Shown one piece after another: positions 1 to 48,428 of a stretch of 48,428 nt of DNA. Every line of letters starts with the position of its first letter. Position 1 is the first letter of the stretch. Both the position numbers and the translations under genes were made by a program. The notes under the pieces are model-generated. The model made no database searches. It was not told the origin of the DNA and saw only the letters and a program-made list of their open reading frames with translations. Origin of the DNA: a virus (lineage: Duplodnaviria > Heunggongvirae > Uroviricota > Caudoviricetes); the IMG/VR virus record IMGVR_UViG_3300045988_145381. One strand, given 5' to 3'.

Positions 1-128
1 GTTGACACCCTCGCATAACCATATTGCATACTTTCTAAACCGCGATTGTTGCTAAAAGCGGGAAAAAATATCGTTCAGACGACACAGAGGCAATTCGCAA
101 AAACCTCGGTTTACAGGAAACGGTAAAT
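1..128. repeat. 128-bp sequence identical to 48301..48428 (circular contig overlap)
   Basis: First 128 nt of the window recur exactly at the 3' end; the boundary coincides with the invertase crossover site. Confidence 0.9.
103..127. promoter_or_regulatory. DNA-invertase crossover site, left inverted repeat (gix/cix-like)
   Basis: acctcggtttacaggaaacggtaaa is the perfect reverse complement of 3155..3179; it lies about 75 bp upstream of the invertase start (wrap-around). Confidence 0.75.
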
Positions 129-1064: not shown

Positions 1065-1066
1065 TT

Positions 1067-1600: not shown

Positions 1601-1603
1601 GAC

Positions 1604-1630
1604 AAGGCCCGATAGCGGGCCTTAATTTTT
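1604..1630. terminator. hairpin terminator between convergent tfa genes
   Basis: aaggccc/gggcctt stem followed by a T-run, between the two convergent tfa ORFs. Confidence 0.5.
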
Positions 1631-2156: not shown

Positions 2157-2157
2157 A

Positions 2158-21814: not shown

Positions 21815-22375
21815 TTATTCTTCCTGCTTAATAAATCGGGATTCCTGGAGCGCCTGAAGCGCAAAATTAATCTCGTCTTCAATAATGCGTTCGATCTCCC
21901 TGGCTGTTTTGCCTTCACAACGGGGAGCTGCTCTTGGAGCAATACTAAATAAGCGGCTACGCAATTCATTAGCTGCCAGAAATGCATCATCCCTGACCGC
22001 ATCTTTAGCGATGAGAGAGCCTTCCTTTTCTTCAAATTCAAGGCGTTTCAGCTTTGCCTGATAAATTTTTTCTGCGGTCTTAGCCTTGTTGAATTGCACC
22101 GCAACACCGGAAGTACCACCAGCTAATCCGGCATCATCAGCGGGTAACTCTGGTTGTTCCGAAGATATCCCATGCCCTCTTTTTCCATTTTCAGCAGATA
22201 CCTCACGACCAACCTGTCGGCTCGCTTCATAAGCCGCACTGGCTTTATCAAAATCCAGCTTGCCGCTTTTCAGCACTGGAATGCGACCGGAACGACAGAG
22301 CTTCGTAACCATTGCCGGAGAAATACCTTTCCGGCGAGCAAACTCTGACTTACTGACGATGGCCATTACTTGCAA
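21815..22375 (-). CDS. terminase small subunit (putative)
   Basis: 186-aa ORF with N-terminal HTH-like segment (...ARRKGISPAMVTKLCRSGRIP...) directly upstream of TerL. Confidence 0.5.
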   Translation of the reverse strand: MQVMAIVSKSEFARRKGISPAMVTKLCRSGRIPVLKSGKLDFDKASAAYEASRQVGREVSAENGKRGHGISSEQPELPADDAGLAGGTSGVAVQFNKAKTAEKIYQAKLKRLEFEEKEGSLIAKDAVRDDAFLAANELRSRLFSIAPRAAPRCEGKTAREIERIIEDEINFALQALQESRFIKQEE

Positions 22376-22956
22376 CCATTAGCAAGATACTGAACAAATC
22401 CCTCATGCGTTTCATGCGCGTCGTGGTACTGACGATAAACATCCAGCAACAATGCAATTTCCATATCCGTCGCGGGAATACGTTCTTTATCAATAGCCAG
22501 GTACTTAATTTGAACAACAGGGGAAGAATTATCGTCTTCTTCCTGCGGCTGTTCATCGCTTAACATTTCGTCAAGCTCTGCATCATTAAACCCAAGCAGA
22601 TCAATATCAAAATCATCATCCATTAACTCTTTGACTTCTTCGGCCAGAAGCTGCATATCCCAGCCAGCATTTAAGGCCAGCTTGTTATCTGCAATCCTGT
22701 AAGCCTTCTTCTGTTTTTCAGAAAGGTTACTCAACCGAATCGCCGGAACTTTATCCATTTCCAGAATTTCGGCTGCTGCAAGCCGACCATGCCCCGCAAT
22801 CAGTTCATTCTTTTCATCGATCAGCACAGGATTAGTGAAACCGAACTCACGGATACTGTTCACCAACTGTTCAACCTGCTCATCTGAATGAGTCCGTGAA
22901 TTTTTGGCGTATCTGAGCAGCTTACCGACTGGTAAATATTCGATTTTTAGAGCCAT
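22366..22956 (-). CDS. ParB-like nuclease-domain protein
   Basis: 196-aa ORF with ParB N-terminal domain pattern (...NPVLIDEKNELIAGHGRLAAA...); paralog of 25623..26246; overlaps the TerS start. Confidence 0.65.
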   Translation of the reverse strand: MALKIEYLPVGKLLRYAKNSRTHSDEQVEQLVNSIREFGFTNPVLIDEKNELIAGHGRLAAAEILEMDKVPAIRLSNLSEKQKKAYRIADNKLALNAGWDMQLLAEEVKELMDDDFDIDLLGFNDAELDEMLSDEQPQEEDDNSSPVVQIKYLAIDKERIPATDMEIALLLDVYRQYHDAHETHEGFVQYLANGCK

Positions 22957-24249: not shown

Positions 24250-25629
24250 CTACTTAATCAACGGCCGGAAAGCCGCCAGCACATCATCAGATCGTCCGAT
24301 TGTTGAACCACCAGGCAACGGCAACTCAAACTCAAAACGAACAGCTTTCTCCAGACTCGCCCAACTAAGGGAATCATCGTTAATGACGTGCAAATACCAG
24401 CTCTTACAGTTGAATATTGACCGCTTAATCCTGAAACCATGTACACGACACAACTGCTTCACTTCATCATCAGAGTGGAACTTCTGGTAAAACCAGTGCC
24501 CCTTCCGGTACAACGCGGTAAAACCGTTATGATCAATAAAATAAAGCCGGCTTTTGGAACTCGCCGCTTGTGTTTGCTTCAGGACTGTTTCCAGCTCTCC
24601 ACGGCTACGACCAGAAAAGAATATTGACCCACCAGCTTTACACAGGCCTTTCAGAACCGTCAGAACGGACCATTCAGCCTCGACACTGTCGACCGAGTTC
24701 AAAACGCTATCGCAAATCACGTAGTCGTAACGCCCTCGCGTTTTTAAGTCATCCACCAGCGTATCAATCATCCGGTTTGTTGCAGCCCTATCCAGAGTGT
24801 TTCCTGCGCCCTTACGGCGGAAAAGCTCGAGATCATGCAGGTTATACCCCTTTGCCCTGAGCATTCGCGCGTAGTCTCCCTGCCCCGAACCAAAATCAAT
24901 TCCTCTTGGCGTCTTGGCAATGATCGGGAGGATCAACGACTCATACAGGTTTGATTTCAGGCTGCCACCATTACGCAACCGCATAAGCTGCGCATACGTC
25001 TGGATGTATGTTGTTTTCTCCAGATGAGAATACTCAAATACACCATAAGTTTTATTCAGATAACTTTGGTATTTTTCCTTCTCAACATCAGGGATCACAA
25101 ACACCGTTAGCGGTGTGCGCGTCATCTTCGCTGCTAATGCATACTGAGCACAGTGAATAACCTCACCAGACTGAGTAGCAACACAACCACCCCACGGACC
25201 ATACTTGATAACCAGTTCCGCTATGTTCTTTCGAACATATGCCATTTTCGCGCGCATATTGCCTGAGATCTGGCTTGCCGATACCTGAACAAAACCATGC
25301 TTATCTTCCAGACCGGACACCCTGCAACGCTCATCTCCGCTATCAAAATCCGTTCCGTTATGCAGTTGGTTAAACCGTACTTCGTCGTATACCGTCGTTT
25401 CACAGGGCAACACATACACCGCAGCACGCGTTATTCCCAACTTACGTAGCGCCTTCGTCCTTTGGTGTCCCGCCACCAGCAAATCGCCGCGCACTATCAA
25501 TGGCTTCACAAGCCCCAGCTCCCTGACGCTTTCCGCCAGCCTCGCAAGATCATCCTCACCGATAAAACGCGGGTTATATTCCGCGCCGCGTAGGTGCGTT
25601 ATGTCGTAATTGAGGTGAAGCATCAGCAC
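24250..25629 (-). CDS. ParB-like N-terminal domain fused to class I SAM-dependent methyltransferase
   Basis: 459-aa ORF; N-terminus ParB-like (...LIVRGDLLVAGHQRTKALRKLG...); motif I IDFGSGQGDYARML and motif II-like YDYVICDSVLN. Confidence 0.65.
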   Translation of the reverse strand: MLMLHLNYDITHLRGAEYNPRFIGEDDLARLAESVRELGLVKPLIVRGDLLVAGHQRTKALRKLGITRAAVYVLPCETTVYDEVRFNQLHNGTDFDSGDERCRVSGLEDKHGFVQVSASQISGNMRAKMAYVRKNIAELVIKYGPWGGCVATQSGEVIHCAQYALAAKMTRTPLTVFVIPDVEKEKYQSYLNKTYGVFEYSHLEKTTYIQTYAQLMRLRNGGSLKSNLYESLILPIIAKTPRGIDFGSGQGDYARMLRAKGYNLHDLELFRRKGAGNTLDRAATNRMIDTLVDDLKTRGRYDYVICDSVLNSVDSVEAEWSVLTVLKGLCKAGGSIFFSGRSRGELETVLKQTQAASSKSRLYFIDHNGFTALYRKGHWFYQKFHSDDEVKQLCRVHGFRIKRSIFNCKSWYLHVINDDSLSWASLEKAVRFEFELPLPGGSTIGRSDDVLAAFRPLIK

Positions 25630-26246
25630 ACCTCCCCAGCCAGCAATGCGGATACAAATCCGATATAGCTGCCATTATCATCAACATAACGAGACACCGC
25701 GCAGTCAAAACGATCCGCTTCCTCATCCGTTGCCGGGATTTTATGACCTCCAAATGACAGGTACTGAACTTTTACGCCTGATTTGGCCTCATCCTTCTCA
25801 AATGGGATATCCATACCCTCTGTGTCATCGTAGACCGCCGCACTCAATAAGTTATCCAGTTCGCGCTGAGTAAAACCAATTGAGTCCAGAGCAAAATCAT
25901 CGGCCGCAAGATCTGCAAGCTCCGCGCTTAACAACTCTTCATCCCAACCAGCATTCAGCGGAATACGGTTGTCGGCCAGACGATATGCCTTCTTCTGATT
26001 CTCCGTTAGCCCAGCCAGAACAATGCAGGGAACATCATCCATCCCCAACTGAGTGGCCGCAGCAATTCGACCATGACCAGCAATTACAACGTTGTTCTCG
26101 TCTATCAGGATCGGATTAGTCCATCCGTACTCCTGTATGCTGGCAACAATCTGATCTACCTGCTCCACGGAGTGTGTGCGAGCGTTCTTTTCATAACCAA
26201 TCAACACAGAAAGTGGTAAAGAAACCACATTAAGATGTTTTGTCAT
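25623..26246 (-). CDS. ParB-like nuclease-domain protein
   Basis: 207-aa ORF, paralog of 22366..22956 (...NPILIDENNVVIAGHGRIAAA...QKKAYRLADN...); coupled to the methyltransferase gene. Confidence 0.65.
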   Translation of the reverse strand: MTKHLNVVSLPLSVLIGYEKNARTHSVEQVDQIVASIQEYGWTNPILIDENNVVIAGHGRIAAATQLGMDDVPCIVLAGLTENQKKAYRLADNRIPLNAGWDEELLSAELADLAADDFALDSIGFTQRELDNLLSAAVYDDTEGMDIPFEKDEAKSGVKVQYLSFGGHKIPATDEEADRFDCAVSRYVDDNGSYIGFVSALLAGEVC

Positions 26247-27773: not shown

Positions 27774-27800
27774 TCTCCTTTGTCTGGATGTAAAAAAGCC
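27774..27800 (-). terminator. rho-independent terminator
   Basis: gcctcggcaattgccggggc hairpin followed by tttttt on the minus strand. Confidence 0.55.
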
Positions 27801-27840
27801 CCGGCAATTGCCGAGGCTCGTTGTTCGTTATCGTTACGGT

Positions 27841-28041
27841 TTAATGCTCGCGTCGTCCGGCGACAACTTCGGATTTGTATTTCAGGTCGCCCAGCAAGAA
27901 TTGCAGTTTAAGCATCTTTGCCGCCGTGTAGTTCCCTGATTCCACAACCTCTTTCATGAGGTCATAAACGGCCGCTACATCATCAGCCAGGAACTCTTTG
28001 CGTTGCTGCTCAGTCGCACGTTTGAAGGAAATACGCATCAC
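27841..28041 (-). CDS. hypothetical protein
   Basis: 66-aa ORF coupled to 28038..28307. Confidence 0.35.
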   Translation of the reverse strand: MMRISFKRATEQQRKEFLADDVAAVYDLMKEVVESGNYTAAKMLKLQFLLGDLKYKSEVVAGRREH

Positions 28042-28307
28042 TCATCATCTCCTGCCGCACATACAACCTCACAAAAAACATCAGCGGAATGTTTCTCCTT
28101 GAACGAATGACGCTCAAAACCGCACTCAATATCAGGCGCAAAAACATCCACCACATACGGTCTTTCAGAATGTTGGTTTTCCCAACGATAAACCGTAGTG
28201 ACGTTGAAATGTTTTAACGCTTCACGGAACTCAACGCTGCCCGTCAGGTTTTTTGAGGTCAGGTATTGCAGGAGGTTTTTTACTACTTCACGGTCTTGTA
28301 CTTTCAT
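28038..28307 (-). CDS. hypothetical protein
   Basis: 89-aa ORF directly downstream of copy 1 of the conserved promoter-leader element. Confidence 0.45.
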   Translation of the reverse strand: MKVQDREVVKNLLQYLTSKNLTGSVEFREALKHFNVTTVYRWENQHSERPYVVDVFAPDIECGFERHSFKEKHSADVFCEVVCAAGDDE

Positions 28308-28314
28308 CGGGTTA

Positions 28315-28425
28315 TCTCCGGTTTAACCAGGGCGGGTATCGCTCGGTTTCGGGTATAACCTTAGGAAATTTTTTCCCACCTGTAAAGCACTTTTTATATA
28401 AATCTATAATTATATAATTCTATGA
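28315..28425 (-). promoter_or_regulatory. conserved promoter-leader element, copy 1
   Basis: Near-identical to 34827..34940 and 44347..44457; gene-direction read gives TTTACA-17bp-TAAGGT, a -10-like TATACC, a conserved leader and ggaga Shine-Dalgarno; AT-rich palindrome upstream. Confidence 0.6.
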
Positions 28426-29007
28426 CACTTGCCAGAGAGCATCATGCAACTGGATACCTCCGTTGCACTGGTTGCCCCAGCCATGCCAGCCATCAGGTAA
28501 ATCACCGCGAGCAAATAGCTCAATACGAGGAACATCACCTAACAGTCTTACCAGCTTGTCACGAACCACATCAGGCTTCCGTGAATGTTCCAGACGAGGC
28601 GATGTAAACGACTGAATGATCCCCGCATCAAGACGTGTCGGTAGTTTGCCTTTCACTGCAAACAAGCAATCTTCACTGTTTGCACGAGTCATATGCCCCA
28701 TCCCCATCACCAGCTTATCTGGTTGTCGGCTACCACATTTGTTCCATGTGAAGCCCTTCATGGTCATAAGCCTGAATCCCCATGCTTTCACCACCAGCAA
28801 CGCTTCTTCTGGCTGAGTCGGAACCCACCACATGGCCAACAAACACGATTCAGGATTAGCAAGCTGCCAGACAGGAATACGAGCAATATCCTCAGCTTTC
28901 ATCGTTGGATACTTAAAACCAGCTCCACGATTCCCATCCTTACACTTATCTTTGTATTCCCAGGGGGGATCTGCATAAATCAGATTAAACAATGCAATTG
29001 CCTCCAT
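28420..29007 (-). CDS. MT-A70-family N6-adenine DNA methyltransferase
   Basis: 195-aa ORF with the DPPW catalytic motif (...IYADPPWEY...). Confidence 0.7.
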   Translation of the reverse strand: MEAIALFNLIYADPPWEYKDKCKDGNRGAGFKYPTMKAEDIARIPVWQLANPESCLLAMWWVPTQPEEALLVVKAWGFRLMTMKGFTWNKCGSRQPDKLVMGMGHMTRANSEDCLFAVKGKLPTRLDAGIIQSFTSPRLEHSRKPDVVRDKLVRLLGDVPRIELFARGDLPDGWHGWGNQCNGGIQLHDALWQVS

Positions 29008-29315: not shown

Positions 29316-29391
29316 TGGTGGCCCCTACCGGATTTGAACCGATGACCGTGCGATTATGAGTCGCCTGCTCTAACCACTGAGCTAAGGGGCC
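29316..29391 (-). tRNA. tRNA, anticodon CAU (Ile2-like or Met)
   Basis: 76-nt cloverleaf GGCCCCTTAGCTCAGTGGTTAGAGCAGGCGACTCATAATCGC...GGTTCAAATCCGGTAGGGGCCACCA with encoded CCA; 5' half matches E. coli ileX-type tRNA as recalled from memory. Confidence 0.85.
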
Positions 29392-29560
29392 ATATTTGAT
29401 CTGTTTGTCTGGTGTGGCGCCGCGCACGAAAATCCCAGCCAATAAATTCAGGATTTTTGGGCGCGGCGGCATATCAGACAAACATGGTTGATGCGTGCGC
29501 CCATAAGAAAAGCGCATAGAATGTTGTAACTATATATTTATATAATTATAGAAATATATA

Positions 29561-29770
29561 TTACTTTCGGCAGTTGATTTCCCATGCCCTGTTATGAGCC
29601 AGAATATCTTTCTTTGTCTGGCGGTCCATAACATCGATGTCGTGATCAGTCAGGTAGATGGGCTTTACCCAATCACAGGCGGTATCAACCACCACCGGGA
29701 CGCTTCCACGACTCCCGCAGCTCGCGATCAACATCGTCATCAGCCATATGGTTAACACTCTGCTGTACAT
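29561..29770 (-). CDS. o-spanin (Rz1-like lipoprotein)
   Basis: 69-aa ORF with lipobox-like LIASC, out of frame inside the 3' part of the i-spanin ORF. Confidence 0.55.
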   Translation of the reverse strand: MYSRVLTIWLMTMLIASCGSRGSVPVVVDTACDWVKPIYLTDHDIDVMDRQTKKDILAHNRAWEINCRK

Positions 29771-31176: not shown

Positions 31177-31212
31177 CGTTAAAAAAAAAGCCCCGCCGAA
31201 AAAGGCAGGGCT
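31177..31212 (-). terminator. terminator-like hairpin upstream of the lysis cassette
   Basis: Minus-strand GC hairpin followed by a run of 9 T. Confidence 0.5.
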
Positions 31213-31553
31213 TCATAAAGCAACAAATTACGCGGTAATCGCTTAACGCAGTTTTACTACGTTAAATGAAACACTACACCCAGTTACCACCTAAAACAAG
31301 GTTTCCCCATAAAAAAACCTTCATATCGTGGTTAATCGATCAATAAAAAAGCAATGTTCAACTTTTTACCAACCGAACATCCCGACCAGGACTTCCATAA
31401 TATTCGCCGATATGCCACTGCTTAAGTTGAGTAATCTTCTCCAACTTAACTCCCATAGAGTCCAGTTTCTGCCATGTTTTCGGTTGTATGTGCTTCATTA
31501 CCCGCTCTGAATATCTGAATACTGCTCGTAAGCGCATGGCTTCTCACTACAGC

Positions 31554-33040: not shown

Positions 33041-33406
33041 TCACTTCAACTCCTCCCGACGACGTTCCTGAAGCTCTAGCATTGCGGCTCGGAAATCCTG
33101 CCACCACTCCTCATCTGCAACGGGGGTGTTCCGCTCCAGCACCTTGTCCGCATCTGCGATCAGATTTGCCAGACTCTTGTCTGAAATCTTCGTTACCGGA
33201 GTCGTTGGTTGCTCAACCTGCCCGATAGGTTTTATCGTGCTCAAAAGGAGGCGACGGCTGGAAAGTGGCGACCCACAACGGCGCCCATCTTCCTTGCGAT
33301 ATGTTTCTTTCGGACCAACACACCAAGTTGTCGGCGTTTCGCGTAACTTCACTTTTTTCTCACCATCAATGGTGATGATTATTCCGGTATGGGTTTTGAT
33401 GCTCAT
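33041..33406 (-). CDS. hypothetical protein
   Basis: 121-aa ORF coupled to the upstream gene. Confidence 0.4.
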   Translation of the reverse strand: MSIKTHTGIIITIDGEKKVKLRETPTTWCVGPKETYRKEDGRRCGSPLSSRRLLLSTIKPIGQVEQPTTPVTKISDKSLANLIADADKVLERNTPVADEEWWQDFRAAMLELQERRREELK

Positions 33407-33684
33407 GCCACAGCCCCTCTCAACGGCTTAACTTTGGCTAATAAGGTGTTAAACAACATGGAGTTAGGGTTCATGCCAAATGGCAATTCCGGTTTAGCGG
33501 AGTAGTACAGGCAACCATTTATTTTCCTGGTTGTTATCTGTCCTTCGGCAACCATGCTTCTCAGTCTGCAACGCATAGAGTTCTGCGACACACCAATGTG
33601 CTCCGCGATTACGTCCACTTTTGAACATGGGTGATCGGTCAGGAAATTAATCACATCTTGGGGGTTAATAATTTTGCGTTTCAT
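33403..33684 (-). CDS. small winged-helix-like DNA-binding protein (putative)
   Basis: ORF 33403..33705 with probable start MKRKIINPQDV...; AT-rich palindrome motif immediately upstream. Confidence 0.4.
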   Translation of the reverse strand: MKRKIINPQDVINFLTDHPCSKVDVIAEHIGVSQNSMRCRLRSMVAEGQITTRKINGCLYYSAKPELPFGMNPNSMLFNTLLAKVKPLRGAVA

Positions 33685-33761
33685 TGTCGAGGCGTCCTTA
33701 TACATTTATATAAATATATAATTCTATATACAGCGGGAGACATCCCGCCGTATGCTTACTG

Positions 33762-34829
33762 TCAGGCTTTCAATAGCGATTCTTTCAGATATCGGGCATC
33801 AGCCAGGGCGTTTGGAGTAATCTTGCGAACCCATGCATTACGGGTTGGACTCCACTTAAAGGCGCGTGATTTAAGCAGCGAACGAATGTTTGCCTCTGGT
33901 TTGCCAGGGAAATAAAACAGGATGCGGTTATCCTCTGGATCTATCTCCATAGAAAAGCCGTCGTATTCTTCGCGCTGTGCTCCTGTTACAGACTTGACCG
34001 ATTCAAGCTCCTTAATACGGCTCTGTAGTCGTTTGATTTCGGCGTTATTGTTGCTCAGTGCGTATGAAGGGAATCCGATGCGCCCACAGAAATCTCCGGC
34101 CAGTAACTCTTTGGCTTCGCTTTCTGTAAACCTGAGATCGATTAATGCAGAAAGCTGCTGTAATTGGTCTTTTTTGTATTTGCGAATGGCCTTATTTGCG
34201 GCCTTCATTTTGACGTGTGACTTCATGCAGCCTTGCAGTTTACGAAGCAACTTAAATAGCGCATCAGGATCATCAGACGAAATTCCATTACGACCAACAC
34301 CTGCGGCTTTGCTCTCGTAGTGTGATGCTTTACTTTCGCATTCAACAAACGCTTTTCTGAATAACGCATCAGCTTTAGACAAACGGCGGCGATGGCCTTT
34401 CGCGCTATAATGGTCAACTAAAATCGGCTGGCCTAACGGGATCACATCCAACAGGTCATGCGCTCGCTTATGCGCTACCGCTCCTTCTTTTCTGGCTTTT
34501 TCTGCACGAGCAATATATCGGGCAAGACGCGCGTTCTGGCGTTCCTGATAGGTGTTTACGTAATCATCTCCGCGCTGCTGCTGTTCAAGCCATGCTTTGC
34601 GCAGATCTTCTGTTACGTCCACCAGCTCCGCAGGGATACAACCAGTTTGGGCTTCATAAGAGTAACCATCCTCATAGATGCGCCCATCGTCTTCAACAAA
34701 GAAAAAGGTTTCGTGCTCATCGCTTTTGACCATACGACCATTAACATGGCGTAATAGGTAGCCAGTATCAGTGCTTAACAGGCTGTTAGGGTTGTTGATC
34801 CAGTCAGAAATAATTACTTGTTTATTCAT
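33762..34829 (-). CDS. DUF3560-like protein
   Basis: 355-aa ORF; C-terminal ...FKWSPTRNAWVRK... resembles the DUF3560 signature recalled from memory; downstream of promoter-leader copy 2. Confidence 0.5.
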   Translation of the reverse strand: MNKQVIISDWINNPNSLLSTDTGYLLRHVNGRMVKSDEHETFFFVEDDGRIYEDGYSYEAQTGCIPAELVDVTEDLRKAWLEQQQRGDDYVNTYQERQNARLARYIARAEKARKEGAVAHKRAHDLLDVIPLGQPILVDHYSAKGHRRRLSKADALFRKAFVECESKASHYESKAAGVGRNGISSDDPDALFKLLRKLQGCMKSHVKMKAANKAIRKYKKDQLQQLSALIDLRFTESEAKELLAGDFCGRIGFPSYALSNNNAEIKRLQSRIKELESVKSVTGAQREEYDGFSMEIDPEDNRILFYFPGKPEANIRSLLKSRAFKWSPTRNAWVRKITPNALADARYLKESLLKA

Positions 34830-34940
34830 CAGATTTCTCCGGTTTAACCAGGGCGGGTATCGCTCGGTTTCGGGTATAACCTTAGGAAATTTTTTCCCAC
34901 CTGTAAAGCACTTTTTATATAAATTATATAATTATATATT
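34827..34940 (-). promoter_or_regulatory. conserved promoter-leader element, copy 2
   Basis: Near-identical to copies 1 and 3; lies between the Q-like gene and the DUF3560-like gene. Confidence 0.6.
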
Positions 34941-35000
34941 ATTAGATTTTCGATGTTCCCGATGTCTACACACCTATCAAAAAGCTCAAAATTGACACTT

Positions 35001-35378
35001 TTACTCTCTTCGCTTTTTCAAATAGTCGACAACATACGCCCTGGCTTTTGCCAACTTCCGGCGATACTGTCTGAGACTAAGAGAAAGGGCGTGGGCTTTA
35101 TCAATATGCGGTGCATTTATGTCGAGGCCCCGAATCTCCCACGCCCCGTATTCAATTCGGACAACCAGCGCCGCAGTCTCATCAACTACCGTGAGGGCCG
35201 TCACCGCTCCCTCGATACTGGTTTCCAGTGAGTCATTTGGTGCGCCGCCTCCTCCGGTAAACTGGCAACGCGTAACCATCATCATTTCTAACATCGACGC
35301 GAAACCGCTACGGGCGTTGCAGCCATTGCGCACCCACAGCGCCCATAGCTCAAACAAGCTATCCAGATCGCGTCTCAC
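35001..35378 (-). CDS. antitermination protein Q-like (putative)
   Basis: 125-aa ORF; ...LFELWALWVRNG... and C-terminal basic region resemble Q21/QuuD-type antiterminators recalled from memory; sits at the end of the cro-side operon. Confidence 0.45.
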   Translation of the reverse strand: MRRDLDSLFELWALWVRNGCNARSGFASMLEMMMVTRCQFTGGGGAPNDSLETSIEGAVTALTVVDETAALVVRIEYGAWEIRGLDINAPHIDKAHALSLSLRQYRRKLAKARAYVVDYLKKRRE

Positions 35379-37370: not shown

Positions 37371-37489
37371 ACCACGATATGTGGTATTAAAACCACATAT
37401 CGTGAGTTTTTCAATGGGCGAAACAAAAAATAACCTTCTATTTGTGGTCCACCTCTCGTCTTACCATGTGAAAACCACTAAATGTGGTA
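37371..37489. promoter_or_regulatory. immunity operator region with three ACCAC-N5-GTG(G/A)(T/G) sites
   Basis: accacgatatgtggt (37371..37385), accacatatcgtgag (37392..37406), accactaaatgtggt (37475..37489) in the divergent intergenic region; tataaat -10-like element at 37493..37499. Confidence 0.6.
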
Positions 37490-38655: not shown

Positions 38656-38683
38656 CTGCAAGCGGGCTAACGCCCGCTTATAT

Positions 38684-38790
38684 GATTATAGATTTATATA
38701 ATTATATAAAACGCTTTTCATCCGCCAAAAAGTTGGTTATGCTTACCTCGTTCTATAAATATAGATTTATAGAATTATATAACCAAACAC
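38684..38790. repeat. AT-rich palindromic repeats upstream of parF-like gene (candidate centromere/operator)
   Basis: Perfect 16-bp palindrome ttatataattatataa at 38694..38709 and related tatagatttatagaattatataa at 38764..38786; a third copy at 39458..39490. Confidence 0.5.
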
Positions 38791-39459
38791 ATGGAGTCTC
38801 GACAAATGACTATCTCTGTAGGTATTTTCAACGGAAAAGGCGGCGTAACCAAATCAACAATTGCCCGTGCTTTAGCAGTTGCTTATGCAAAGGCTGGCTG
38901 GAATGTATGCCTGATCGATATGGATGTGCTTAACGGAACGGTAACGCGTTGGGTACAACGCAGAATGGCCAACAATATCGAACCAGCAATCGCGGCGCAG
39001 CCGTGCGGCACACCATCACAAGTCCAGAAAATCATCGAATCAGAAGTATACGACCTGGTTATCGTCGATGGCGGTGCCTACGCATCTGAATCAGTACCGA
39101 AGCTCTCTGAATTTCTGGATATGGTTATTTTGCCAACCAGATTCTCTACCGATGACCTGGAAACCACCGTTAACACTGCTCACGGCATCGTTAAAAAGGG
39201 TGTACCAATCAAGAAAATTTGCATGGTGTTTTCCGGCGCGGCTGAAAACGAAGCTGACTATATTGAAGCCCAAGAGTACCTGGCTAATACGCCATACTTT
39301 GTTGTTGATAAGTACATTCCCCACAAGCCAGCTCTGAGCAAAGCTCAGGATAAGGGCTTAAGCCTCATTGAGTGCTCATACGTTGCGCCACGCAAAAAGG
39401 CAGACGACGTTATTCAGGGGATTATCAACCAGCTTGAGGCTCTGACTACTGCCGCGTAA
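38791..39459 (+). CDS. ParA/ParF-type partition ATPase
   Basis: 222-aa ORF with deviant Walker A (GIFNGKGGVTKST); start may be the second Met at 38806. Confidence 0.7.
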   Translation: MESRQMTISVGIFNGKGGVTKSTIARALAVAYAKAGWNVCLIDMDVLNGTVTRWVQRRMANNIEPAIAAQPCGTPSQVQKIIESEVYDLVIVDGGAYASESVPKLSEFLDMVILPTRFSTDDLETTVNTAHGIVKKGVPIKKICMVFSGAAENEADYIEAQEYLANTPYFVVDKYIPHKPALSKAQDKGLSLIECSYVAPRKKADDVIQGIINQLEALTTAA

Positions 39460-39502
39460 TATATAATTATAGTTTTATAGATTTATATAAGAGGGGATAC
39501 AC

Positions 39503-39751
39503 ATGGCCGCACCATCAAAACCACCAAAGAAGAACAGCAAAGGCGTACCGCCATCGATCGAACAACCGCAGGTTTTCGACCCGACTGAAACGCCAACCAG
39601 AACCAAATCAGGTGGGGCACAAATGGCGTTTAACGTCGACCCTGAATTTAAACGCGAGTACAAAACGTTCGCCAGCTCAATGGATATGTCATTGAAAGAA
39701 GTGCTGACAAAATCTTTTGAGTTACTCAAGGCTCAATACAACCAGAAGTAA
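39503..39751 (+). CDS. ParG-like small ribbon-helix-helix partition protein (putative)
   Basis: 82-aa ORF immediately after the ParA-like gene; flexible basic N-terminus and C-terminal strand-helix-helix-like segment. Confidence 0.5.
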   Translation: MAAPSKPPKKNSKGVPPSIEQPQVFDPTETPTRTKSGGAQMAFNVDPEFKREYKTFASSMDMSLKEVLTKSFELLKAQYNQK

Positions 39752-39967: not shown

Positions 39968-39990
39968 AACCATAAAAAAGGCCCCCGAAG
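39968..39990 (-). terminator. rho-independent terminator (minus-strand orientation)
   Basis: ggcccccgaaggggcc hairpin with a T-run on the minus strand. Confidence 0.5.
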
Positions 39991-40001
39991 GGGCCTAATC
40001 G

Positions 40002-40124
40002 CTACTTGCTGCTAATGTTTATCGTCACATTTAGAGCGTTATCAGTAATCTTCCAACCCTCCCCATGTGGCGTAAACAAAGCTCCAGTAACAACGATAAA
40101 AATACACATACAGTATTTTTTCAT
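40002..40124 (-). CDS. small hydrophobic peptide (40 aa, MKKYCMCIFIVVTGALFTPHGEGW...)
   Basis: Read directly from sequence; Shine-Dalgarno-like aaggg upstream; terminator 39968..39990 immediately downstream. Confidence 0.25.
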   Translation of the reverse strand: MKKYCMCIFIVVTGALFTPHGEGWKITDNALNVTINISSK

Positions 40125-40520
40125 TGTATGGCCCTTACAGGCCGTTTCACGGCATCCCCACCGACGAAAACAACGCGAGAGCAAGCACGGCTGCTTGTGC
40201 TTGCATGTACGGCAACGGAGAATCCTCCCCTAAAGTCGGTGCCCGGGTGCGAATCGGCGGGAAGGTCCACAGGTATTTTACGATTATTTTAAGATTAGTA
40301 ATAGGAAAGAAATTAAACGAAAAAACTCGTTTATTTTCACAAAATCAGTAACCTACCCACAATCTGTGAGTTTGCAGGCACAACAAGAACCACAATTTTT
40401 TGAAGCATAATAGTGGACTATTATTACCTTTTGGGTAAAATTAACTTGCTGCTTGTGCTTGCGTGGTTGTTTATACAACAACGTAATGCTGAAAGGACCG
40501 CGAATCCGATCAGCACGAAA

Positions 40521-40549
40521 GAACCGTCCTCAATAGGGCGGTTTTTTTG
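40521..40549 (+). terminator. intrinsic terminator-like hairpin in the ant leader region
   Basis: Stem-loop followed by 7 T. Confidence 0.45.
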
Positions 40550-40690
40550 TTTCTGCCTACCAATAAACCCACGCTATGTGGTTGTCTCTGTTAAAATCCC
40601 GCCGTATTGACATGAATGCGCCATTGGTGGACACTTTCCGAGCCGTAGCAAAATCTACGGTCGGGATTGGCGTCCCGATTGCACAATGGC

Positions 40691-40716
40691 GCATACCGCG
40701 TTAGCGGTTTTTTTAT
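40691..40716 (+). terminator. intrinsic terminator-like hairpin in the ant leader region
   Basis: accgc-gtta-gcggt stem-loop followed by 7 T. Confidence 0.45.
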
Positions 40717-40876
40717 GCGTAAAGCACTGCTACACCCAAATTATGGTGGGGCGTGCGGGGGCGGAGAAATCCGCGCCGGGTTTGTCATTGTGCCGGTTAC
40801 GCCAACCCTGTACGTCTCACCACCATATTGATTGGCGTCATTGGTGGTGATAGTTCCTTTAATCGGAGATATCACA

Positions 40877-41068
40877 ATGACAAACCTACCCCATGACTAT
40901 TACGTCAACCTCGTAAAGATCCTTCTCAAGAAAGCCTCATACGCCGATAAATTCCGCCTGGCTGAAATCATCGAGCGCGAAGCTATGCGCATCGCCAGCA
41001 ACGATAACGCTGTTTCTGACGCAAAAATCTCCCTCGTAACCAAAGTAGTTATGGGAGGTGCAAAATGA
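40877..41068 (+). CDS. small protein overlapping the ant start (Icd-like position)
   Basis: 63-aa ORF (MTNLPHDYYVNL...) within ORF 40832..41068; ATGA overlap with the ant-like gene. Confidence 0.35.
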   Translation: MTNLPHDYYVNLVKILLKKASYADKFRLAEIIEREAMRIASNDNAVSDAKISLVTKVVMGGAK

Positions 41069-42246
41069 AAACGCTTCCGACCGTTAACACCCTACAGCCT
41101 ATCCTGCATAACCAGCTCCCCGTTATCACTACTGAACTACTGGCGCAATTGTATGGAACCGAGCGCCAACGTCTGACAAACAATTTCAATAGAAACAAGG
41201 AACGTTTTATAGAAGGTAAACACTTTTTTAGGATAGAAGGTAAAGAGTTACGAGAGTTGAAGAACAAAAACTCTTTAAGAGTTCCTGTGAGAGTAGTTAA
41301 CGAACCATCTTTAAGAGGGTTACAAATTCCCCCGAAAGTTCGCTCCCTCATCCTCTGGACAGAACGCGGGGCTGCACGTCACGCTAAAATGCTTGAAACT
41401 AACCAAGCGTGGGATGTGTTCGAACGGCTGGAAGACTGCTATTTCAACCAGAACGCGCAAACGGCCGCGACCGTAACCGTCTCACCAAACAATGCTCGTG
41501 AGGTTGTCGATACGCTCAACGCCAAACCGATGTTTTACATTAAAGTGTGCAACAACGAGCCACTCACAACCTCAGCCGATGTTGCCCAGGCATTCAGCAC
41601 CACAAACAATTCCATCGTTATGGCCATCGATGCGTTACGCATTCCTCGCACAGCTGCGGCGCGTCATTTCTTTAAAGAGCAACGACCGTTGGAAGGAAGC
41701 GACCGCGAAATAACAATCTATCGCATGACAAAAGACGGATTTACCTTGCTCATGGAAAGTATCGACGGTCCAGGCGTGAAGGATATCAAGCTGGCCTACA
41801 TTGAAGCCTTTAACGCTATCAGCAGCGTGTTAAAAACACAGTACGAGCGCGATCTGGCTAAACGACTGTACCAGGAAAAAACGATTATCCGCGCGGCAAC
41901 AGAGCATAATCGGCTATTAACGGAACCGAACTACAGGAAGGAACTAATCAAGGAGTTTGACAAGGCAACAGGGAAAACCAAAGCGGCGCTAAGTCTGCCA
42001 GCAATGACTCAGGAAAATGTGATATCAGCCTTACTTCTTGATCTGCTCAGAAACGCCAGAGCACTTATCAGCTTTGACGAAAACCTGAATCCTCAGCTCA
42101 AGCTACTACCACCGACAGGCAAAGTAGTCGACCAGGCTGATCACAACAGCATACTCAGCGTACTGGATGCAAACCTGCCAGCCAGGACACTACAGGATCT
42201 GATAAAAACATGTGCTGATAAGCTGGCACAGAAAAGCAGACCATAA
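41065..42246 (+). CDS. ant: antirepressor (ORF6N/KilA-N-like plus Rha/Ant-like domains)
   Basis: 393-aa ORF; N-terminal ...ITTELLAQLYGTERQRLTNNFNRNKERFIEGKHFFRIEGKELREL... and central Rha/Ant-like region; hairpin terminator at 42252..42271. Confidence 0.65.
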   Translation: MKTLPTVNTLQPILHNQLPVITTELLAQLYGTERQRLTNNFNRNKERFIEGKHFFRIEGKELRELKNKNSLRVPVRVVNEPSLRGLQIPPKVRSLILWTERGAARHAKMLETNQAWDVFERLEDCYFNQNAQTAATVTVSPNNAREVVDTLNAKPMFYIKVCNNEPLTTSADVAQAFSTTNNSIVMAIDALRIPRTAAARHFFKEQRPLEGSDREITIYRMTKDGFTLLMESIDGPGVKDIKLAYIEAFNAISSVLKTQYERDLAKRLYQEKTIIRAATEHNRLLTEPNYRKELIKEFDKATGKTKAALSLPAMTQENVISALLLDLLRNARALISFDENLNPQLKLLPPTGKVVDQADHNSILSVLDANLPARTLQDLIKTCADKLAQKSRP

Positions 42247-43923: not shown

Positions 43924-43950
43924 CGCAAAGTGTCAAAATGACACTTTGCG
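43924..43950. terminator. perfect 12-bp-stem palindrome between convergent genes
   Basis: cgcaaagtgtca-aaa-tgacactttgcg. Confidence 0.45.
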
Positions 43951-43958
43951 CATTGTGT

Positions 43959-44339
43959 TTACTTAACGAGGAATAAAAATGGTTTATTGTTCGGCGGTGT
44001 AATCGGGGCTGGCTCGCTTTTGCTCATGCGATCAGTGTACCAGGCCAACTCCTTGTCAAAGTAAGCCTGATTAAAATAGGCCATGAATGTAGTTTCAAAT
44101 CCATAACGACCGCTAATACGCAGCATCTGATTGCCGTTCTCTGTTTCCAGATATACCTGGGCACGTTCCTGATTCTCCTTCAGCCAGGTTAAAGCCTCAT
44201 CGCATGAGGACACACGATACTCATCATCGTAGCAGTCATCGATGCGGCTTGAGGAAGAACGGCAAATCACGCCAACAGAACCAGCCAGGATAGTTTGAAT
44301 TTTAAGGAAAGCGTTTTTGCGGATTTTAATCATGCTCAT
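43959..44339 (-). CDS. hypothetical protein
   Basis: 126-aa ORF directly downstream of promoter-leader copy 3. Confidence 0.45.
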   Translation of the reverse strand: MSMIKIRKNAFLKIQTILAGSVGVICRSSSSRIDDCYDDEYRVSSCDEALTWLKENQERAQVYLETENGNQMLRISGRYGFETTFMAYFNQAYFDKELAWYTDRMSKSEPAPITPPNNKPFLFLVK

Positions 44340-44346
44340 CGGGTTA

Positions 44347-44457
44347 TCTCCGGTTTAACCAGGGCGGGTATCGCTCGGTTTCGGGTATAACCTTAGGAAT
44401 TTTTTTCCCACCTGTAAAGCACTTTTTATATAAATATATAATTATATAATTCTATGA
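44347..44457 (-). promoter_or_regulatory. conserved promoter-leader element, copy 3
   Basis: Near-identical to copies 1 and 2, including the upstream ttatataattctatga motif. Confidence 0.6.
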
Positions 44458-45393: not shown

Positions 45394-45684
45394 CTATTTT
45401 TGTGACTTTACTCCTGGCATATGGACTTCCCAGCGACGAATCCCCATAGCTGCGCAAAAATCAGCCACATAATTCAATCCCGCCCATTCGCGGATACCAC
45501 CACGGGCTTTTTCAATGAAAACGGCAATCCCTTTTTTATTGAGAGCAAAAAGCCGCCAGCTTTTTGTCACTTCGTCCTGGGTAGCCACAACACAAGTGAA
45601 AGCTCCCATGCGATACAGGTCCAAGAACTCTTTGCGTGTTTTGCGTACAAGTTCCATAACAAACCTCATATTTGCATGTTTCAA
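45394..45684 (-). CDS. hypothetical protein
   Basis: 96-aa ORF coupled to the upstream HTH gene. Confidence 0.4.
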   Translation of the reverse strand: MKHANMRFVMELVRKTRKEFLDLYRMGAFTCVVATQDEVTKSWRLFALNKKGIAVFIEKARGGIREWAGLNYVADFCAAMGIRRWEVHMPGVKSQK

Positions 45685-45980
45685 ACATCTGTTTTGTTAT
45701 CAATGAAGATTAACCCTAACCCAGCGAAGTAACACAGCAGCGCCCAGGCTGCATACGGAATGCTGGATCTGGATGTGGACTCCTTTAACATCTGCCAGTT
45801 GCGAACATTGCGACTATCTTTTAAGCCAAGTTTTTTGGCCAACTGCGAGCCGCTCATTCCGGTCAGGCCAATGACTGCCCGAACTTCTCCACATGTAGGA
45901 GATTCCCATTCATCCGCTTTTTTTAAACAAGCCGGATTCAACATTTTTAAAACAGTATCTTTATCCATAACCATCTCCAT
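45681..45980 (-). CDS. HTH-domain protein with hydrophobic C-terminus
   Basis: 99-aa ORF; HTH-like ...GMSGSQLAKKLGLKDSRNVRNWQ... and C-terminal ...AAWALLCYFAGLGLIF... Confidence 0.45.
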   Translation of the reverse strand: MEMVMDKDTVLKMLNPACLKKADEWESPTCGEVRAVIGLTGMSGSQLAKKLGLKDSRNVRNWQMLKESTSRSSIPYAAWALLCYFAGLGLIFIDNKTDV

Positions 45981-46379
45981 TTATTATATCTACGATGGTA
46001 GGAAATCTTTTCCTATGTGGCAATAGAAATTTACTACATTGCGTATAAGACAAGTTTTCTATGTCTAATAGGAAATGATGTTTCTTACGTTTTATCGCGT
46101 TCTGATGGCTACTGTGTGCGTATTTATCGACGTTTATTGATAAGGCTCGCCCCTTCCTCCTGCAAAGCCCGGCCGTAGGCCTTATTTCGGCCTTATATAA
46201 ATTGATTTTGTATAGTTCGAAACGCGCCGTTTCGAAAAGGATGATCAGGCTGCTCCATGCCTCCGGCAAGTGCCGGAGGAGGTATATTTGAGCGTAGCGA
46301 CTCGAACCGGCGCGAGCTTTAGCTCGCTGCAAGGGCGAACATATTCACAGGCAAAGCCTGCGTAAGTTAAATAAAGAAA

Positions 46380-48330: not shown

Positions 48331-48428
48331 ACTTTCTAAACCGCGATTGTTGCTAAAAGCGGGAAAAAATATCGTTCAGACGACACAGAGGCAATTCGCA
48401 AAAACCTCGGTTTACAGGAAACGGTAAA

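What the first reader, a model, noticed from the sequence alone, without database searches (positions are those of the whole stretch)
28315..28425. Three near-identical copies of a ~100-bp promoter-leader element; candidate antiterminator-responsive late promoters
The same element occurs at 28315..28425, 34827..34940 and 44347..44457, each immediately upstream of a minus-strand gene. In gene direction each has TTTACA-17bp-TAAGGT, a -10-like TATACC in the initial transcribed region (as in sigma-dependent pause sites used by Q proteins), a conserved ~45-nt leader and ggaga Shine-Dalgarno. One copy lies directly downstream of the Q-like gene. Such strict conservation suggests a shared regulatory input.
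Basis: partly seen in the sequence, partly recalled or inferred. Interest (0 to 1): 0.6.

Follow-up and report, generated by a model that had tools for sequence, protein, structure and literature searches.

The report
Repeated repressor-controlled promoter cassettes in phage-plasmid
Three near-identical 122-base promoter units in this 48-kb phage-plasmid are real, but they look like switch-off-able 'entry-phase' promoters controlled by an anti-CRISPR-associated-type repressor (plus the plasmid-partition protein), not like Q-antiterminator late promoters.

Summary
In detail: three copies of about 122 nt, 95-98% identical, each end exactly at the ATG of a minus-strand gene. The window is a circular phage-plasmid (IncFII-type RepA, ParA), found as 47-50 kb plasmids in E. 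coli.

Each cassette has five parts: 8-bp-periodic AT-rich iterons, a -35 TTTACA, a 17-bp spacer holding a 17-bp palindrome (TGGGAAA-N3-TTTCCTA), a -10 TAAGGT, and a leader with a two-tier hairpin followed by the Shine-Dalgarno.

A fourth, perfect palindrome sits in the promoter of a 95-aa HTH gene (45681-45968). That protein is homologous to the HTH domain of AcrIF24 and to Aca3. The published AcrIF24 operator is also a 17-bp TAG...CTA inverted repeat between -35 and -10.

Diverged relatives keep the architecture with clade-specific palindromes, iterons and hairpins. Lineages lacking the HTH gene lack the palindrome. The iterons match those flanking parA and co-vary with the small protein encoded next to parA (probably ribbon-helix-helix).

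The Q-like assignment of the 125-aa gene is weak.

Best reading: Aca-type repressed cassettes driving short, terminator-bounded operons of unknown, possibly anti-defence, genes. This is a new variant of a known kind.

The parts
28304..28425 (-). Cassette 1 (whole repeat). Iterons 28394-28425; -35 TTTACA 28381-28386; 17-bp palindrome 28362-28378; -10 TAAGGT 28358-28363; leader hairpin 28325-28348; SD GGAGA 28315-28319; ATG 28305-28307.
34825..34946 (-). Cassette 2. Iterons about 34915-34946; -35 34902-34907; palindrome 34883-34899; -10 34879-34884; hairpin 34846-34869; SD 34836-34840; ATG 34827-34829.
44336..44457 (-). Cassette 3. Iterons 44426-44457; -35 44413-44418; palindrome 44394-44410 (one extra mismatch); -10 44390-44395; hairpin 44357-44380; SD 44347-44351; ATG 44337-44339.
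45995..46023 (-). Promoter of the regulator gene: TTGCCA-17-TACCAT. The perfect palindrome TAGGAAAAGATTTCCTA (45999-46015) lies in the spacer. This is the fourth operator; it has no iterons and no cassette leader.
45681..45968 (-). 95-aa HTH protein, the candidate palindrome-binding repressor. It is homologous to the HTH 'body' domain of AcrIF24 and to Aca3.
39503..39751 (+). 82-aa protein downstream of parA: a basic disordered N-tail and a C-terminal segment with a ribbon-helix-helix sequence pattern. Candidate iteron-binding protein (centromere-binding and repressor).
38791..39459 (+). ParA-like Walker ATPase (222 aa). Iteron arrays flank it at 38678-38709, 38751-38790 and 39459-39498.
33690..33729 (-). 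Iteron array without a cassette core, directly upstream of the MarR/FaeA-like gene 33403-33705. It shares the parA-type ribosome-binding-site (RBS) module CTCGACAATG.
29522..29569 (-). Iteron array without a cassette core, upstream of tRNA-Met (29319-29391).
27796..28307 (-). Cargo of cassette 1: an 89-aa gene (28038-28307) and a 66-aa gene (27841-28041), both of unknown function. They are followed by a strong intrinsic terminator at 27796-27819.
33762..34829 (-). Cargo of cassette 2: a 355-aa DUF3560 protein with a primase-like C-terminal part. A GC hairpin follows it just before the 33690-33729 iterons.
43924..44339 (-). Cargo of cassette 3: a 126-aa gene of unknown function (43959-44339), followed by a bidirectional terminator at 43924-43950. 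Homologues are also cassette-driven in another clade.
35001..35378 (-). 125-aa protein in the lambdoid 'Q position', after a RusA-like gene. It has a sigma-region-4-like C-terminal HTH. It is a possible late regulator, and no link to the cassettes was shown.

Best explanation
Each copy is a self-contained promoter-operator-5'UTR cassette of a phage-plasmid.

What the sequence shows:
- A sigma-70-type promoter: an A-tract, -35 TTTACA, a 17-bp spacer and -10 TAAGGT.
- A 17-bp palindrome inside the spacer.
- 3-4 copies of an 8-bp iteron just upstream of the -35.
- A transcribed leader that forms a conserved two-tier hairpin about 17 nt before the start codon.

Inferred mechanism:
- A dimer of the 95-aa HTH protein (45681-45968) binds the palindrome. 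This protein is a relative of the Aca function of AcrIF24.
- Binding occludes RNA polymerase at all three cassettes and at the protein's own promoter.
- The cassettes therefore fire when the DNA enters a cell without repressor, and are shut off once the repressor accumulates and in the plasmid-prophage state.
- The small, probably ribbon-helix-helix protein encoded next to parA binds the iterons. This adds a second maintenance-phase input (repression and/or centromere function).
- By analogy with Aca1 and Aca2, the hairpin may be a translational operator.

The cargo consists of short, terminator-bounded operons of small proteins of unknown function. They are candidate anti-defence or establishment genes; this step is the least certain.

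The copies are kept alike within each genome by recombination or gene conversion.
For: Operator and regulator:
- TAGGAAANNNTTTCCTA with at most 2 mismatches occurs exactly 4 times in the window: the 3 cassettes plus the promoter of the HTH gene. Shuffles give 0.22.
- A profile of the HTH protein hits AcrIF24 residues 154-218 (E 1.6e-7 to 2.9e-7) and Aca3 (E 0.0024).
- Its AF2 model (pLDDT 83.7) has AcrIF24 as the top Foldseek hit (E 2.9e-3, TM 0.67, rmsd 2.7 A, 33% identity), then Aca1 and Aca2.
- The published AcrIF24 operator is a 17-bp inverted repeat, TAGCTCGATTCGAGCTA, between TTGCAT-N17-TATAGT. Binding represses, probably by blocking RNA polymerase (PMC9638941). Here there is the same length, the same position and the same outer TAG...CTA.
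- AcrIF24 DNA-binding residues R196 and R207 align with R and K/R.

Comparative evidence:
- Relatives from three clades keep the architecture with symmetric, clade-specific palindromes: TAGGAAA/TTTCCTA, TAGGACT/AGTCCTA and TAGGTC/GACCTA.
- Their HTH proteins have diverged to 30-38% identity.
- In clade B the HTH gene is the second gene of a cassette-driven operon, which is the acr-aca layout.
- Lineages without the HTH gene (L015, L018, L019, L034) have no such palindrome, although they keep the Q-position gene.

Iterons:
- There are 27 hits in 8 arrays, against 0.06 expected. They flank parA.
- Five iteron types go with five variants in the short stretch just before the predicted helices, the presumed DNA-reading beta-strand.
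- ParA plus the small protein are the only candidates present in every iteron-bearing lineage.
- 16 of 46 remote homologues match Pfam RHH_10.

Hairpin:
- 88.9-90.7% of cells are paired, against 17-42% when the partners are slid. Each alignment has two compensatory pairs.
- The shape and position match the published Aca1 RNA motif: lower stem, 1-2 unpaired bases, a 3-bp upper stem, ending about 20 nt before the ATG. The same paper predicts that Aca proteins can regulate several operons (PMC13551039).

Other:
- Terminators bound the cargo.
- Plasmid lifestyle: IncFII RepA at 5.5e-44; 52 plasmids of roughly 46-52 kb (those listed) covering at least 80% of the replication region; 214 of 217 cassette matches in E. 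coli are on plasmids.
Against: - No binding, transcription-start or expression data exist. All protein-site assignments rest on homology, co-occurrence and co-variation across few independent lineages (3 palindrome types, 5 iteron types).
- No cargo protein resembles a known anti-CRISPR or any Pfam, NCBIfam or PDB entry. The 'Aca' label is therefore by homology of the regulator only.
- The -10 (TAAGGT) is weak, so a 'strong promoter' is not shown.
- In the window the cassette palindromes are imperfect (6 of 7 arm pairs, and 5 of 7 in copy 3), while the regulator's own site is perfect.
- Hairpin covariation is modest: 7-11 of 500 shuffles reach the observed score. MFE is -9.6 kcal/mol, z about -1.9.
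- The ribbon-helix-helix assignment of the 82-aa protein is indirect. ParG is matched only at E 0.88.
- Genes after the terminators at 27796-27819 and 31187-31214 have no recognisable promoter of their own. Read-through from upstream promoters, possibly the cassettes, may matter.
Confidence: 0.62

Rival explanations
1. The cassettes are constitutive PR'-like late promoters. The 125-aa Q-like protein engages RNA polymerase there, with the palindrome acting as a Q-binding element and a sigma-dependent pause in the leader. Transcription then reads through the downstream terminators into lysis and late genes.
For: - Copy 2 lies directly downstream of the 125-aa gene, which sits after a RusA-like gene as Q does in lambdoid phages.
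- The top six Foldseek PDB hits of that protein's model are Q21, and its C-terminus resembles sigma region 4.
- It has a weak NCBIfam match to PA0613, which sits upstream of the R-pyocin lysis and tail genes.
- Strong terminators at 27796-27819 and 31187-31214 are followed within about 20-25 nt by the next gene's SD, with no promoter found.
- In lambda the Q-binding element also lies between -35 and -10 (from my own knowledge, not tested here).
Against: - The Q21 fold matches are not significant (E 0.24-0.56, TM 0.42-0.52). Only 1 of 23 homologues touches Pfam Phage_antitermQ, at E 0.074.
- TATACC abuts the -10 and is not conserved. No -10-like element is conserved in the leader in any clade.
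- The Q-position protein is present in lineages with no cassette or palindrome.
- In clade B the cassettes lie only in the plasmid region and drive the HTH regulator itself.
- The palindrome also sits in the HTH gene's own promoter and matches the AcrIF24 operator design.
- A separate promoter-like, hairpin and terminator region at about 31187-31330, just before the holin, is a better PR'/tR' candidate.
Confidence: 0.13
2. The cassettes are mainly dispersed partition or silencing sites. The par ribbon-helix-helix protein bound to the iterons is the dominant regulator, in the manner of omega of pSM19035, KorB of RK2 or the dispersed sopC sites of N15. The palindrome plays a minor or unrelated role.
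For: - Iterons are part of every cassette in all three clades and always match that genome's parA iterons.
- There are eight arrays against 0.06 expected.
- The small protein's putative DNA-reading strand co-varies with iteron type.
Against: - Iteron arrays also occur without the cassette core, and the cassette core (palindrome) occurs at the HTH gene promoter without iterons. The two elements are therefore separable.
- The iterons lie upstream of the -35 rather than over the core promoter.
- The palindrome shows its own symmetric co-variation and strict co-occurrence with the HTH gene.
Confidence: 0.15
3. The leader hairpin is a nut/put-like RNA antitermination signal or an mRNA-stability or processing element. 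The near-identity reflects recent duplication of a portable promoter, with no dedicated repressor.
For: - A conserved hairpin of different sequence sits at the same place in three clades.
- Terminators lie downstream.
- There are signs of recombination between cassettes: L005 is a hybrid and contigs break at the cassettes.
Against: - No boxA-like element is shared between the three clades' leaders, and no Rfam family matches.
- Recent duplication alone does not explain the persistence of the architecture at 30-60% protein divergence, with clade-specific palindromes.
Confidence: 0.07

Closest known systems
AcrIF24 (dual Acr-Aca) autoregulation of the acrIF23-acrIF24 promoter in a Pseudomonas aeruginosa prophage (PMC9638941)
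   Same: The HTH domains are homologous (profile E 1.6e-7; top fold hit). Both operators are 17-bp inverted repeats with outer TAG...CTA, placed between the -35 and -10 of a promoter with a 17-bp spacer. In both, the regulator's own promoter carries the site.
   Different: Here the regulator is a stand-alone 95-aa protein without the Acr 'head' and 'wing' domains. It has four sites spread over about 18 kb of a phage-plasmid. No known acr gene is present. The half-site sequence differs.
Aca1/Aca2 dual DNA and RNA control, and multi-operon Aca regulons (Feussner et al. 2026, PMC13551039; phage ZF40 Aca2)
   Same: A DNA inverted repeat in the promoter is combined with a two-tier hairpin in the 5' UTR that ends about 20 nt before the start codon. 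Several operons carry the same motif pair, and the cargo is small genes of unknown function.
   Different: Published cases are neighbouring operons. Here the units are near-identical 122-nt cassettes dispersed among early, lysis and pre-structural regions. They carry partition-type iterons, and RNA binding is untested.
Partition proteins that double as global repressors: omega of pSM19035 (heptad arrays at three promoters serving as parS1-3), ParG of TP228, KorB of RK2, dispersed sopC sites of phage-plasmid N15. Recalled from my own knowledge, not read here.
   Same: A small ParA is paired with a small protein that is probably ribbon-helix-helix. Short iterated repeats lie upstream of parA and at several other promoters.
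   Different: The repeat unit is 8 bp and AT-rich. The arrays are fused to promoters that carry a second, HTH-type operator. Binding and centromere function are not shown.
Lambdoid PR'-tR' with Q (lambda, 82, 21)
   Same: A promoter lies directly downstream of a small regulator gene in the Q position, terminators lie downstream, and a protein-binding site sits in the promoter spacer.
   Different: There are three copies. No sigma-dependent pause element is conserved. ORFs, not a short non-coding RNA, precede the terminator. The cassettes are absent from relatives that keep the Q-position gene.

Membership tests
Aca-type (anti-CRISPR-associated) repressor/operator module | Small HTH regulator homologous to a characterised Aca | tested here: met
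   Profile against PDB sequences: AcrIF24 HTH E 1.6e-7, Aca3 E 0.0024. Foldseek top hits are AcrIF24, then Aca1 and Aca2.
Aca-type (anti-CRISPR-associated) repressor/operator module | Inverted repeat overlapping or lying between -35 and -10 of the regulated promoter, also present at the regulator's own promoter | tested here: met
   A 17-bp palindrome lies in the 17-bp spacer of 3 cassettes and of the HTH gene promoter: 4 sites against 0.22 expected. Its geometry matches the published AcrIF24 operator.
Aca-type (anti-CRISPR-associated) repressor/operator module | Regulated operon encodes a known anti-CRISPR or anti-defence protein | tested here: not met
   The cargo proteins (89, 66, 126 and 355 aa, and clade-B 103, 86, 98, 191 aa) have no PDB, Pfam or NCBIfam match to an Acr. 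DUF3560 is the only hit. Absence of homology does not exclude the function.
Aca-type (anti-CRISPR-associated) repressor/operator module | Structured hairpin in the 5' UTR (Aca1/Aca2 type) | tested here: inconclusive
   The hairpin is conserved in three clades, with 89-91% of cells paired and 2 compensatory pairs in each alignment. Its energy is weak, and binding by the HTH protein cannot be tested here.
Aca-type (anti-CRISPR-associated) repressor/operator module | Protein binds the repeat and represses transcription | not testable with these tools
   Needs EMSA and reporter assays.
Q-dependent late promoter (lambdoid PR') | Q-family antiterminator gene | tested here: inconclusive
   No Pfam hit for the window protein. 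One of 23 homologues matches Phage_antitermQ at E 0.074. Q21 fold hits have E 0.24-0.56. PA0613_fam matches at E 2.5e-4, below its cut-off.
Q-dependent late promoter (lambdoid PR') | Conserved -10-like sigma-dependent pause element in the initial transcribed region | tested here: not met
   TATACC abuts the -10 and is replaced by GACAAC, AGTAAC, CTACTC or TATCTC in relatives.
Q-dependent late promoter (lambdoid PR') | Terminator between the promoter and the late genes, and co-occurrence of the promoter with the Q gene | tested here: inconclusive
   Terminators lie 0.4-0.5 kb downstream of cassettes 1 and 3. However, the cassettes are absent from four lineages that keep the Q-position gene, and in clade B they lie in the plasmid region.
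Type Ib partition locus with ribbon-helix-helix centromere-binding protein and iterated repeats | Small Walker-type ParA followed by a small centromere-binding-protein gene | tested here: met
   ParA is 222 aa (CbiA/ParA/MipZ). An 82-aa gene lies 44 nt downstream.
Type Ib partition locus with ribbon-helix-helix centromere-binding protein and iterated repeats | The centromere-binding protein has a ribbon-helix-helix fold | tested here: inconclusive
   No direct Pfam or PDB hit. Of 46 remote homologues, 16 match RHH_10 and 10 match Antitox_RHH. The ParG alignment is in register but only E 0.88. No structure model was made.
Type Ib partition locus with ribbon-helix-helix centromere-binding protein and iterated repeats | Arrays of short repeats at parA that co-vary with the centromere-binding protein | tested here: met
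   Arrays flank parA. Five iteron types go with five beta-strand variants in relatives.
Miniature mobile element (MITE-like repeat) | Terminal inverted repeats and target-site duplication, with insertion independent of gene phase | tested here: not met
   No terminal inverted repeats were found. Every copy is oriented with, and ends exactly at, the ATG of the downstream gene.

The most novel reading that the evidence does not exclude
In this phage-plasmid lineage the plasmid-partition protein and an Aca-type repressor jointly gate a set of portable, concertedly evolving 'entry' cassettes. Centromere-like iterons have been copied onto every such promoter. Establishing the plasmid state, with the par complex assembled and the repressor made, is then what silences a burst of anti-defence or establishment genes. 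The 5'-UTR hairpin adds translational control. This would directly couple plasmid partition machinery to anti-defence timing.
Probability: 0.25. Interest if true: 0.7.

Novelty: new variant of a known kind. Interest (0 to 1): 0.55.

Why it matters
If correct, the finding does four things:
- It identifies an AcrIF24/Aca-like regulon in a widespread but little-studied E. coli/Yersinia phage-plasmid, present in about 1.4% of complete E. coli genomes.
- It flags a handful of small cassette-driven genes as candidates for new anti-defence or establishment functions.
- It offers a compact natural example of three stacked control layers on one 122-nt module: an HTH operator, partition-protein iterons and an RNA hairpin.
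- It shows that such modules spread and are homogenised within genomes, which also explains why assemblies of these elements break at them.

Tried and rejected
- Rfam: no family matches the leader.
- Exact-pattern scan of GTDB genomes with the leader: 0 hits.
- Sequence searches of the Q-position protein and of the 82-aa protein against PDB: nothing.
The BFVD search for the Q-position model gave only unnamed or sigma-like hits.
- Literature on vB_YpM_39/41/44: none found. The 'pseudolysogenic' Yersinia phage HQ103 is an unrelated 32-kb peduovirus.
- CI repressor as the palindrome binder: rejected. Its operators are different palindromes next to cI.
- The MarR/FaeA-like and 124-aa proteins as iteron binders: rejected, because they are absent from most iteron-bearing lineages.
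- RNA hairpin as a mimic of the DNA half-site: suggestive only in clade C, not in the other clades, so not claimed.
- The motif GTATATTCAAAACA, conserved after the Q-position gene in clade D, is absent from the window.
- DUF3560 literature gave no functional lead.

Full report
**Observation**

The three copies exist as described. The repeat finder gives a 122-nt family at 28304-28425, 34825-34946 and 44336-44457. A MAFFT alignment shows near-identity that begins in an AT-rich tract and ends at the ATG of three unrelated minus-strand genes. The 35-nt promoter core and the 37-nt leader each occur three times with at most 1 mismatch, against 0.00 expected.

**Context**

- Bases 1-127 repeat at 48302-48428, so the window is a circular genome of 48,301 bp.
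- It is about 98% identical to the barely annotated Yersinia phages vB_YpM_39, 41 and 44.
- It encodes an IncFII-type RepA (Pfam 5.5e-44) followed by a DnaA box.
- It also encodes a ParA-like ATPase, a CI-like repressor, a P1 immI-like isrK/C4/Ant module, lysis genes, a gpA-type terminase and tail genes.
- 52 plasmids cover at least 80% of its replication region at about 98-100% identity; those listed are roughly 46-52 kb.
- The cassette occurs in 74 of 5,426 complete E. coli genomes, with a median of three copies. 214 of 217 places are on plasmids.
- The element is therefore a phage-plasmid.

The genes upstream of the copies are an MT-A70 methyltransferase (copy 1), a 125-aa protein of unknown family after a RusA-like gene (copy 2), and a HigB/HigA-like pair plus a terminator (copy 3).

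**Anatomy of a cassette, in gene direction**

1. Three to four 8-bp units of the type TTATAKAW.
2. An A-tract.
3. -35 TTTACA.
4. A 17-bp spacer.
5. -10 TAAGGT.
6. A leader of about 45 nt.
7. GGAGA, then the ATG.

The simple sigma-70 scan does not flag the promoter, because TAAGGT matches only 3 of 6 consensus positions. However, the -35, the spacing and a TAnnnT -10 are retained in diverged relatives as TATGGT, TATTAT, TACTAT or TATAAT. This supports the promoter assignment.

**The iterons**

The pattern TTATAKAWTTATAKAW with at most 1 mismatch gives 27 hits in eight arrays, against 0.06 expected. Besides the three cassettes, arrays lie in these places:
- twice upstream of parA;
- between parA and the 82-aa gene that follows it;
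- upstream of a MarR/FaeA-like gene;
- upstream of tRNA-Met.

**Relatives**

Homologues of the 125-aa protein led to diverged relatives. Multi-copy cassettes of 110-130 nt are a lineage trait. L028 has 3 copies; L029, L017, L030, L033 and L037 have 2; L031 has 3; L032 and L038 have 4.

Within a genome the copies are 94-100% identical. Between clade-A genomes they are 85-93% identical, except L017 and L029, whose cassettes are 96-97% alike. Copies within a genome share genome-specific substitutions, which indicates concerted evolution.

Three clades share the same architecture but differ in sequence:

| Element | Clade A | Clade B | Clade C |
|---|---|---|---|
| Iterons | TTATATAA type | GATATAAA type | AAAGATTT type |
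| Palindrome | TAGGAAA-ATA-TTTCCTA | TAGGACT-AAA-AGTCCTA | TAGGTC-AAAAA-GACCTA |

In every clade the last TA of the 17-bp palindrome forms the start of the -10. The window's version, TGGGAAA-AAA-TTTCCTA, is slightly degenerate.

**The regulator of the palindrome**

A scan for such palindromes found a fourth, perfect one in the window at 45999-46015. It lies inside a TTGCCA-17-TACCAT promoter just upstream of a small gene, 45681-45968. There are exactly four sites, against 0.22 expected.

A profile of that 95-aa protein (alignment A5) matches the HTH domain of AcrIF24 (E 1.6e-7) and Aca3 (E 0.0024) among PDB sequences. Its AlphaFold model (pLDDT 83.7) has AcrIF24 as its best structural match, then Aca1 and Aca2.

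The AcrIF24 paper reports that the protein represses a TTGCAT-N17-TATAGT promoter. It does so by binding a 17-bp inverted repeat, TAGCTCGATTCGAGCTA, that sits 'almost perfectly between' the hexamers (PMC9638941). This is the same design as seen here.

Homologues of the 95-aa protein occur in clades B and C at 30-38% identity. In clade B the gene is the second gene of a cassette-driven operon, the classical acr-aca layout. In clade C, as in the window, it has its own palindrome-bearing promoter.

Lineages lacking this gene (L015, L018, L019, L034) have no such palindromes, although they keep the 125-aa gene. These are few independent lineages, so the association is supportive rather than conclusive.

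**The regulator of the iterons**

The only candidate present in every iteron-bearing lineage is the ParA plus small-protein pair. Across lineages the small proteins are 31-47% identical to the window's. They differ in the short stretch just before the predicted helices: QMAFNV, QLLFRL, KLMNFNV, KPLNFNV and KLLTFNI. These five variants parallel the five iteron types.

An exhaustive HMMER search found about 60 relatives. Of the 46 aligned, 16 match Pfam RHH_10 and 10 match Antitox_RHH. The profile aligns in register with ParG, but only at E 0.88. I therefore treat 'ribbon-helix-helix partition protein binds the iterons' as likely, not shown.

**The leader**

The leader folds weakly: -9.6 kcal/mol, z about -1.9. 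Even so, a two-tier hairpin is present at the same place in all three clades with different sequence.
- Clade B, 14 sequences: 90.7% of cells are paired, against 17-42% when the partners are slid, with two compensatory pairs. One of these involves the purine of the Shine-Dalgarno.
- Clades A and C, 9 sequences: 88.9% paired against 18-39%, with two compensatory pairs.

Feussner et al. 2026 (PMC13551039) describe the Aca1 RNA motif in almost the same terms. It has a lower stem, up to two unpaired bases and a three-pair upper stem. It starts just after the transcription start and ends about 20 nt before the start codon. They show that Aca1 binds it, and that Aca proteins are predicted to control several operons. 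That paper does not mention this element or any link to partition.

- TATACC abuts the -10 and is not conserved.
- The 125-aa protein has no Pfam family.
- Its model (pLDDT 77.5) has Q21 as its top PDB hits, but at E 0.24-0.56. It also has a clear sigma-region-4-like C-terminus.
- NCBIfam gives a sub-threshold match to PA0613, a putative regulator next to the R-pyocin lysis genes.
- It may well be a late regulator, but nothing ties it to the cassettes.

One point in favour of some antitermination: the cassette-1 operon (89 aa and 66 aa) ends in a strong terminator at 27796-27819, and the next gene's ribosome-binding site follows it at once. A similar terminator at 31187-31214 immediately precedes the holin. 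The region about 31187-31330, with a possible TTGTTT-17-TAGTGT promoter, two hairpins and the terminator, looks more like a PR'/tR' unit than the cassettes do. I did not follow this up.

**Cargo**

The cassette-driven genes are small and of unknown function. They match no Pfam, NCBIfam or PDB entry apart from DUF3560. The 126-aa gene has cassette-driven homologues in clade B. 'Anti-defence' is therefore an inference from the regulator family and the operon layout.

**Verdict**

The finding is real, and it is a set of co-regulated promoters. The most likely regulator is an AcrIF24/Aca-type HTH repressor acting at a spacer palindrome, together with partition-type iterons and a 5'-UTR hairpin. 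A Q antiterminator is the less likely regulator. This is a new variant of a recently described kind of system.

Noticed in passing
window 31187-31330 (minus strand): Just upstream of the holin gene (ATG 31167) there is a possible TTGTTT-17-TAGTGT promoter, two small hairpins and a very strong terminator (31187-31214), with no room for another promoter. This is a PR'/tR'-like arrangement and may be the real target of the Q-position protein. A CI-operator-like half-site (CCACGATATG) lies nearby.
   Followed up: partly
window 39974-40827 and 41065-42246: Rfam matches to ryfA (143 bits), isrK and C4 antisense RNA lie directly upstream of a 393-aa Ant/Rha-like antirepressor gene. This is a P1 immI- or Gifsy-type antirepressor control module.
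   Followed up: no
window 37373-37404: A perfect 32-bp palindrome, CACGATATGTGGTATTAAAACCACATATCGTG, lies in the divergent region between the CI-like repressor and the early operon. It is a probable CI operator. Relative L017 has three ACCACGAATCGTGGT sites flanking cI.
   Followed up: partly
window 38783-38808 and 33700-33720; L014 6363-6388; L017 4945-4965; L037 parA upstream: The ribosome-binding region of parA (GGAGTCTCGACAAATG), preceded by iterons, recurs almost verbatim in front of an unrelated gene (MarR/FaeA-like in the window). This is a second kind of portable iteron-promoter-RBS module.
   Followed up: partly
window 45394-45684 (minus strand): A protein of about 91 aa is encoded just downstream of the HTH regulator. 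It is conserved at 43-51% identity even in lineages that lack the regulator, always near repA. It matches no known family.
   Followed up: partly
window 47776-48330 and 100-3182: A Hin-type DNA invertase lies next to long inverted repeats (1148-1423/1800-2075 and 100-151/3131-3182) within the tail-fibre region. This is probably an invertible host-range segment.
   Followed up: no
window 22366-22956, 24250-25629, 25623-26246, 28420-29007: Three ParB-N/nuclease-like genes, one fused to a methyltransferase domain, and an MT-A70 methyltransferase lie between the cassettes and the terminase. This set resembles plasmid leading-region or anti-restriction genes.
   Followed up: no
L003, L005, L010, L011 (IMG/VR contigs): Contigs of close relatives often end inside the cassette. 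L005 joins a copy-2-type 3' junction to the copy-1 gene. The cassettes therefore break assemblies and recombine with each other.
   Followed up: partly
window 3569-3961: Three diverged 93-nt direct repeats (72-83% identical) lie inside the 792-aa tail-fibre-like ORF (2158-4536).
   Followed up: no
whole window: This ~48-kb phage-plasmid (the close Yersinia phages carry myovirus-type names) does not correspond to any of the ten typed phage-plasmid groups listed in PMC12977533, none of which is a ~48-kb enterobacterial myovirus.
   Followed up: partly
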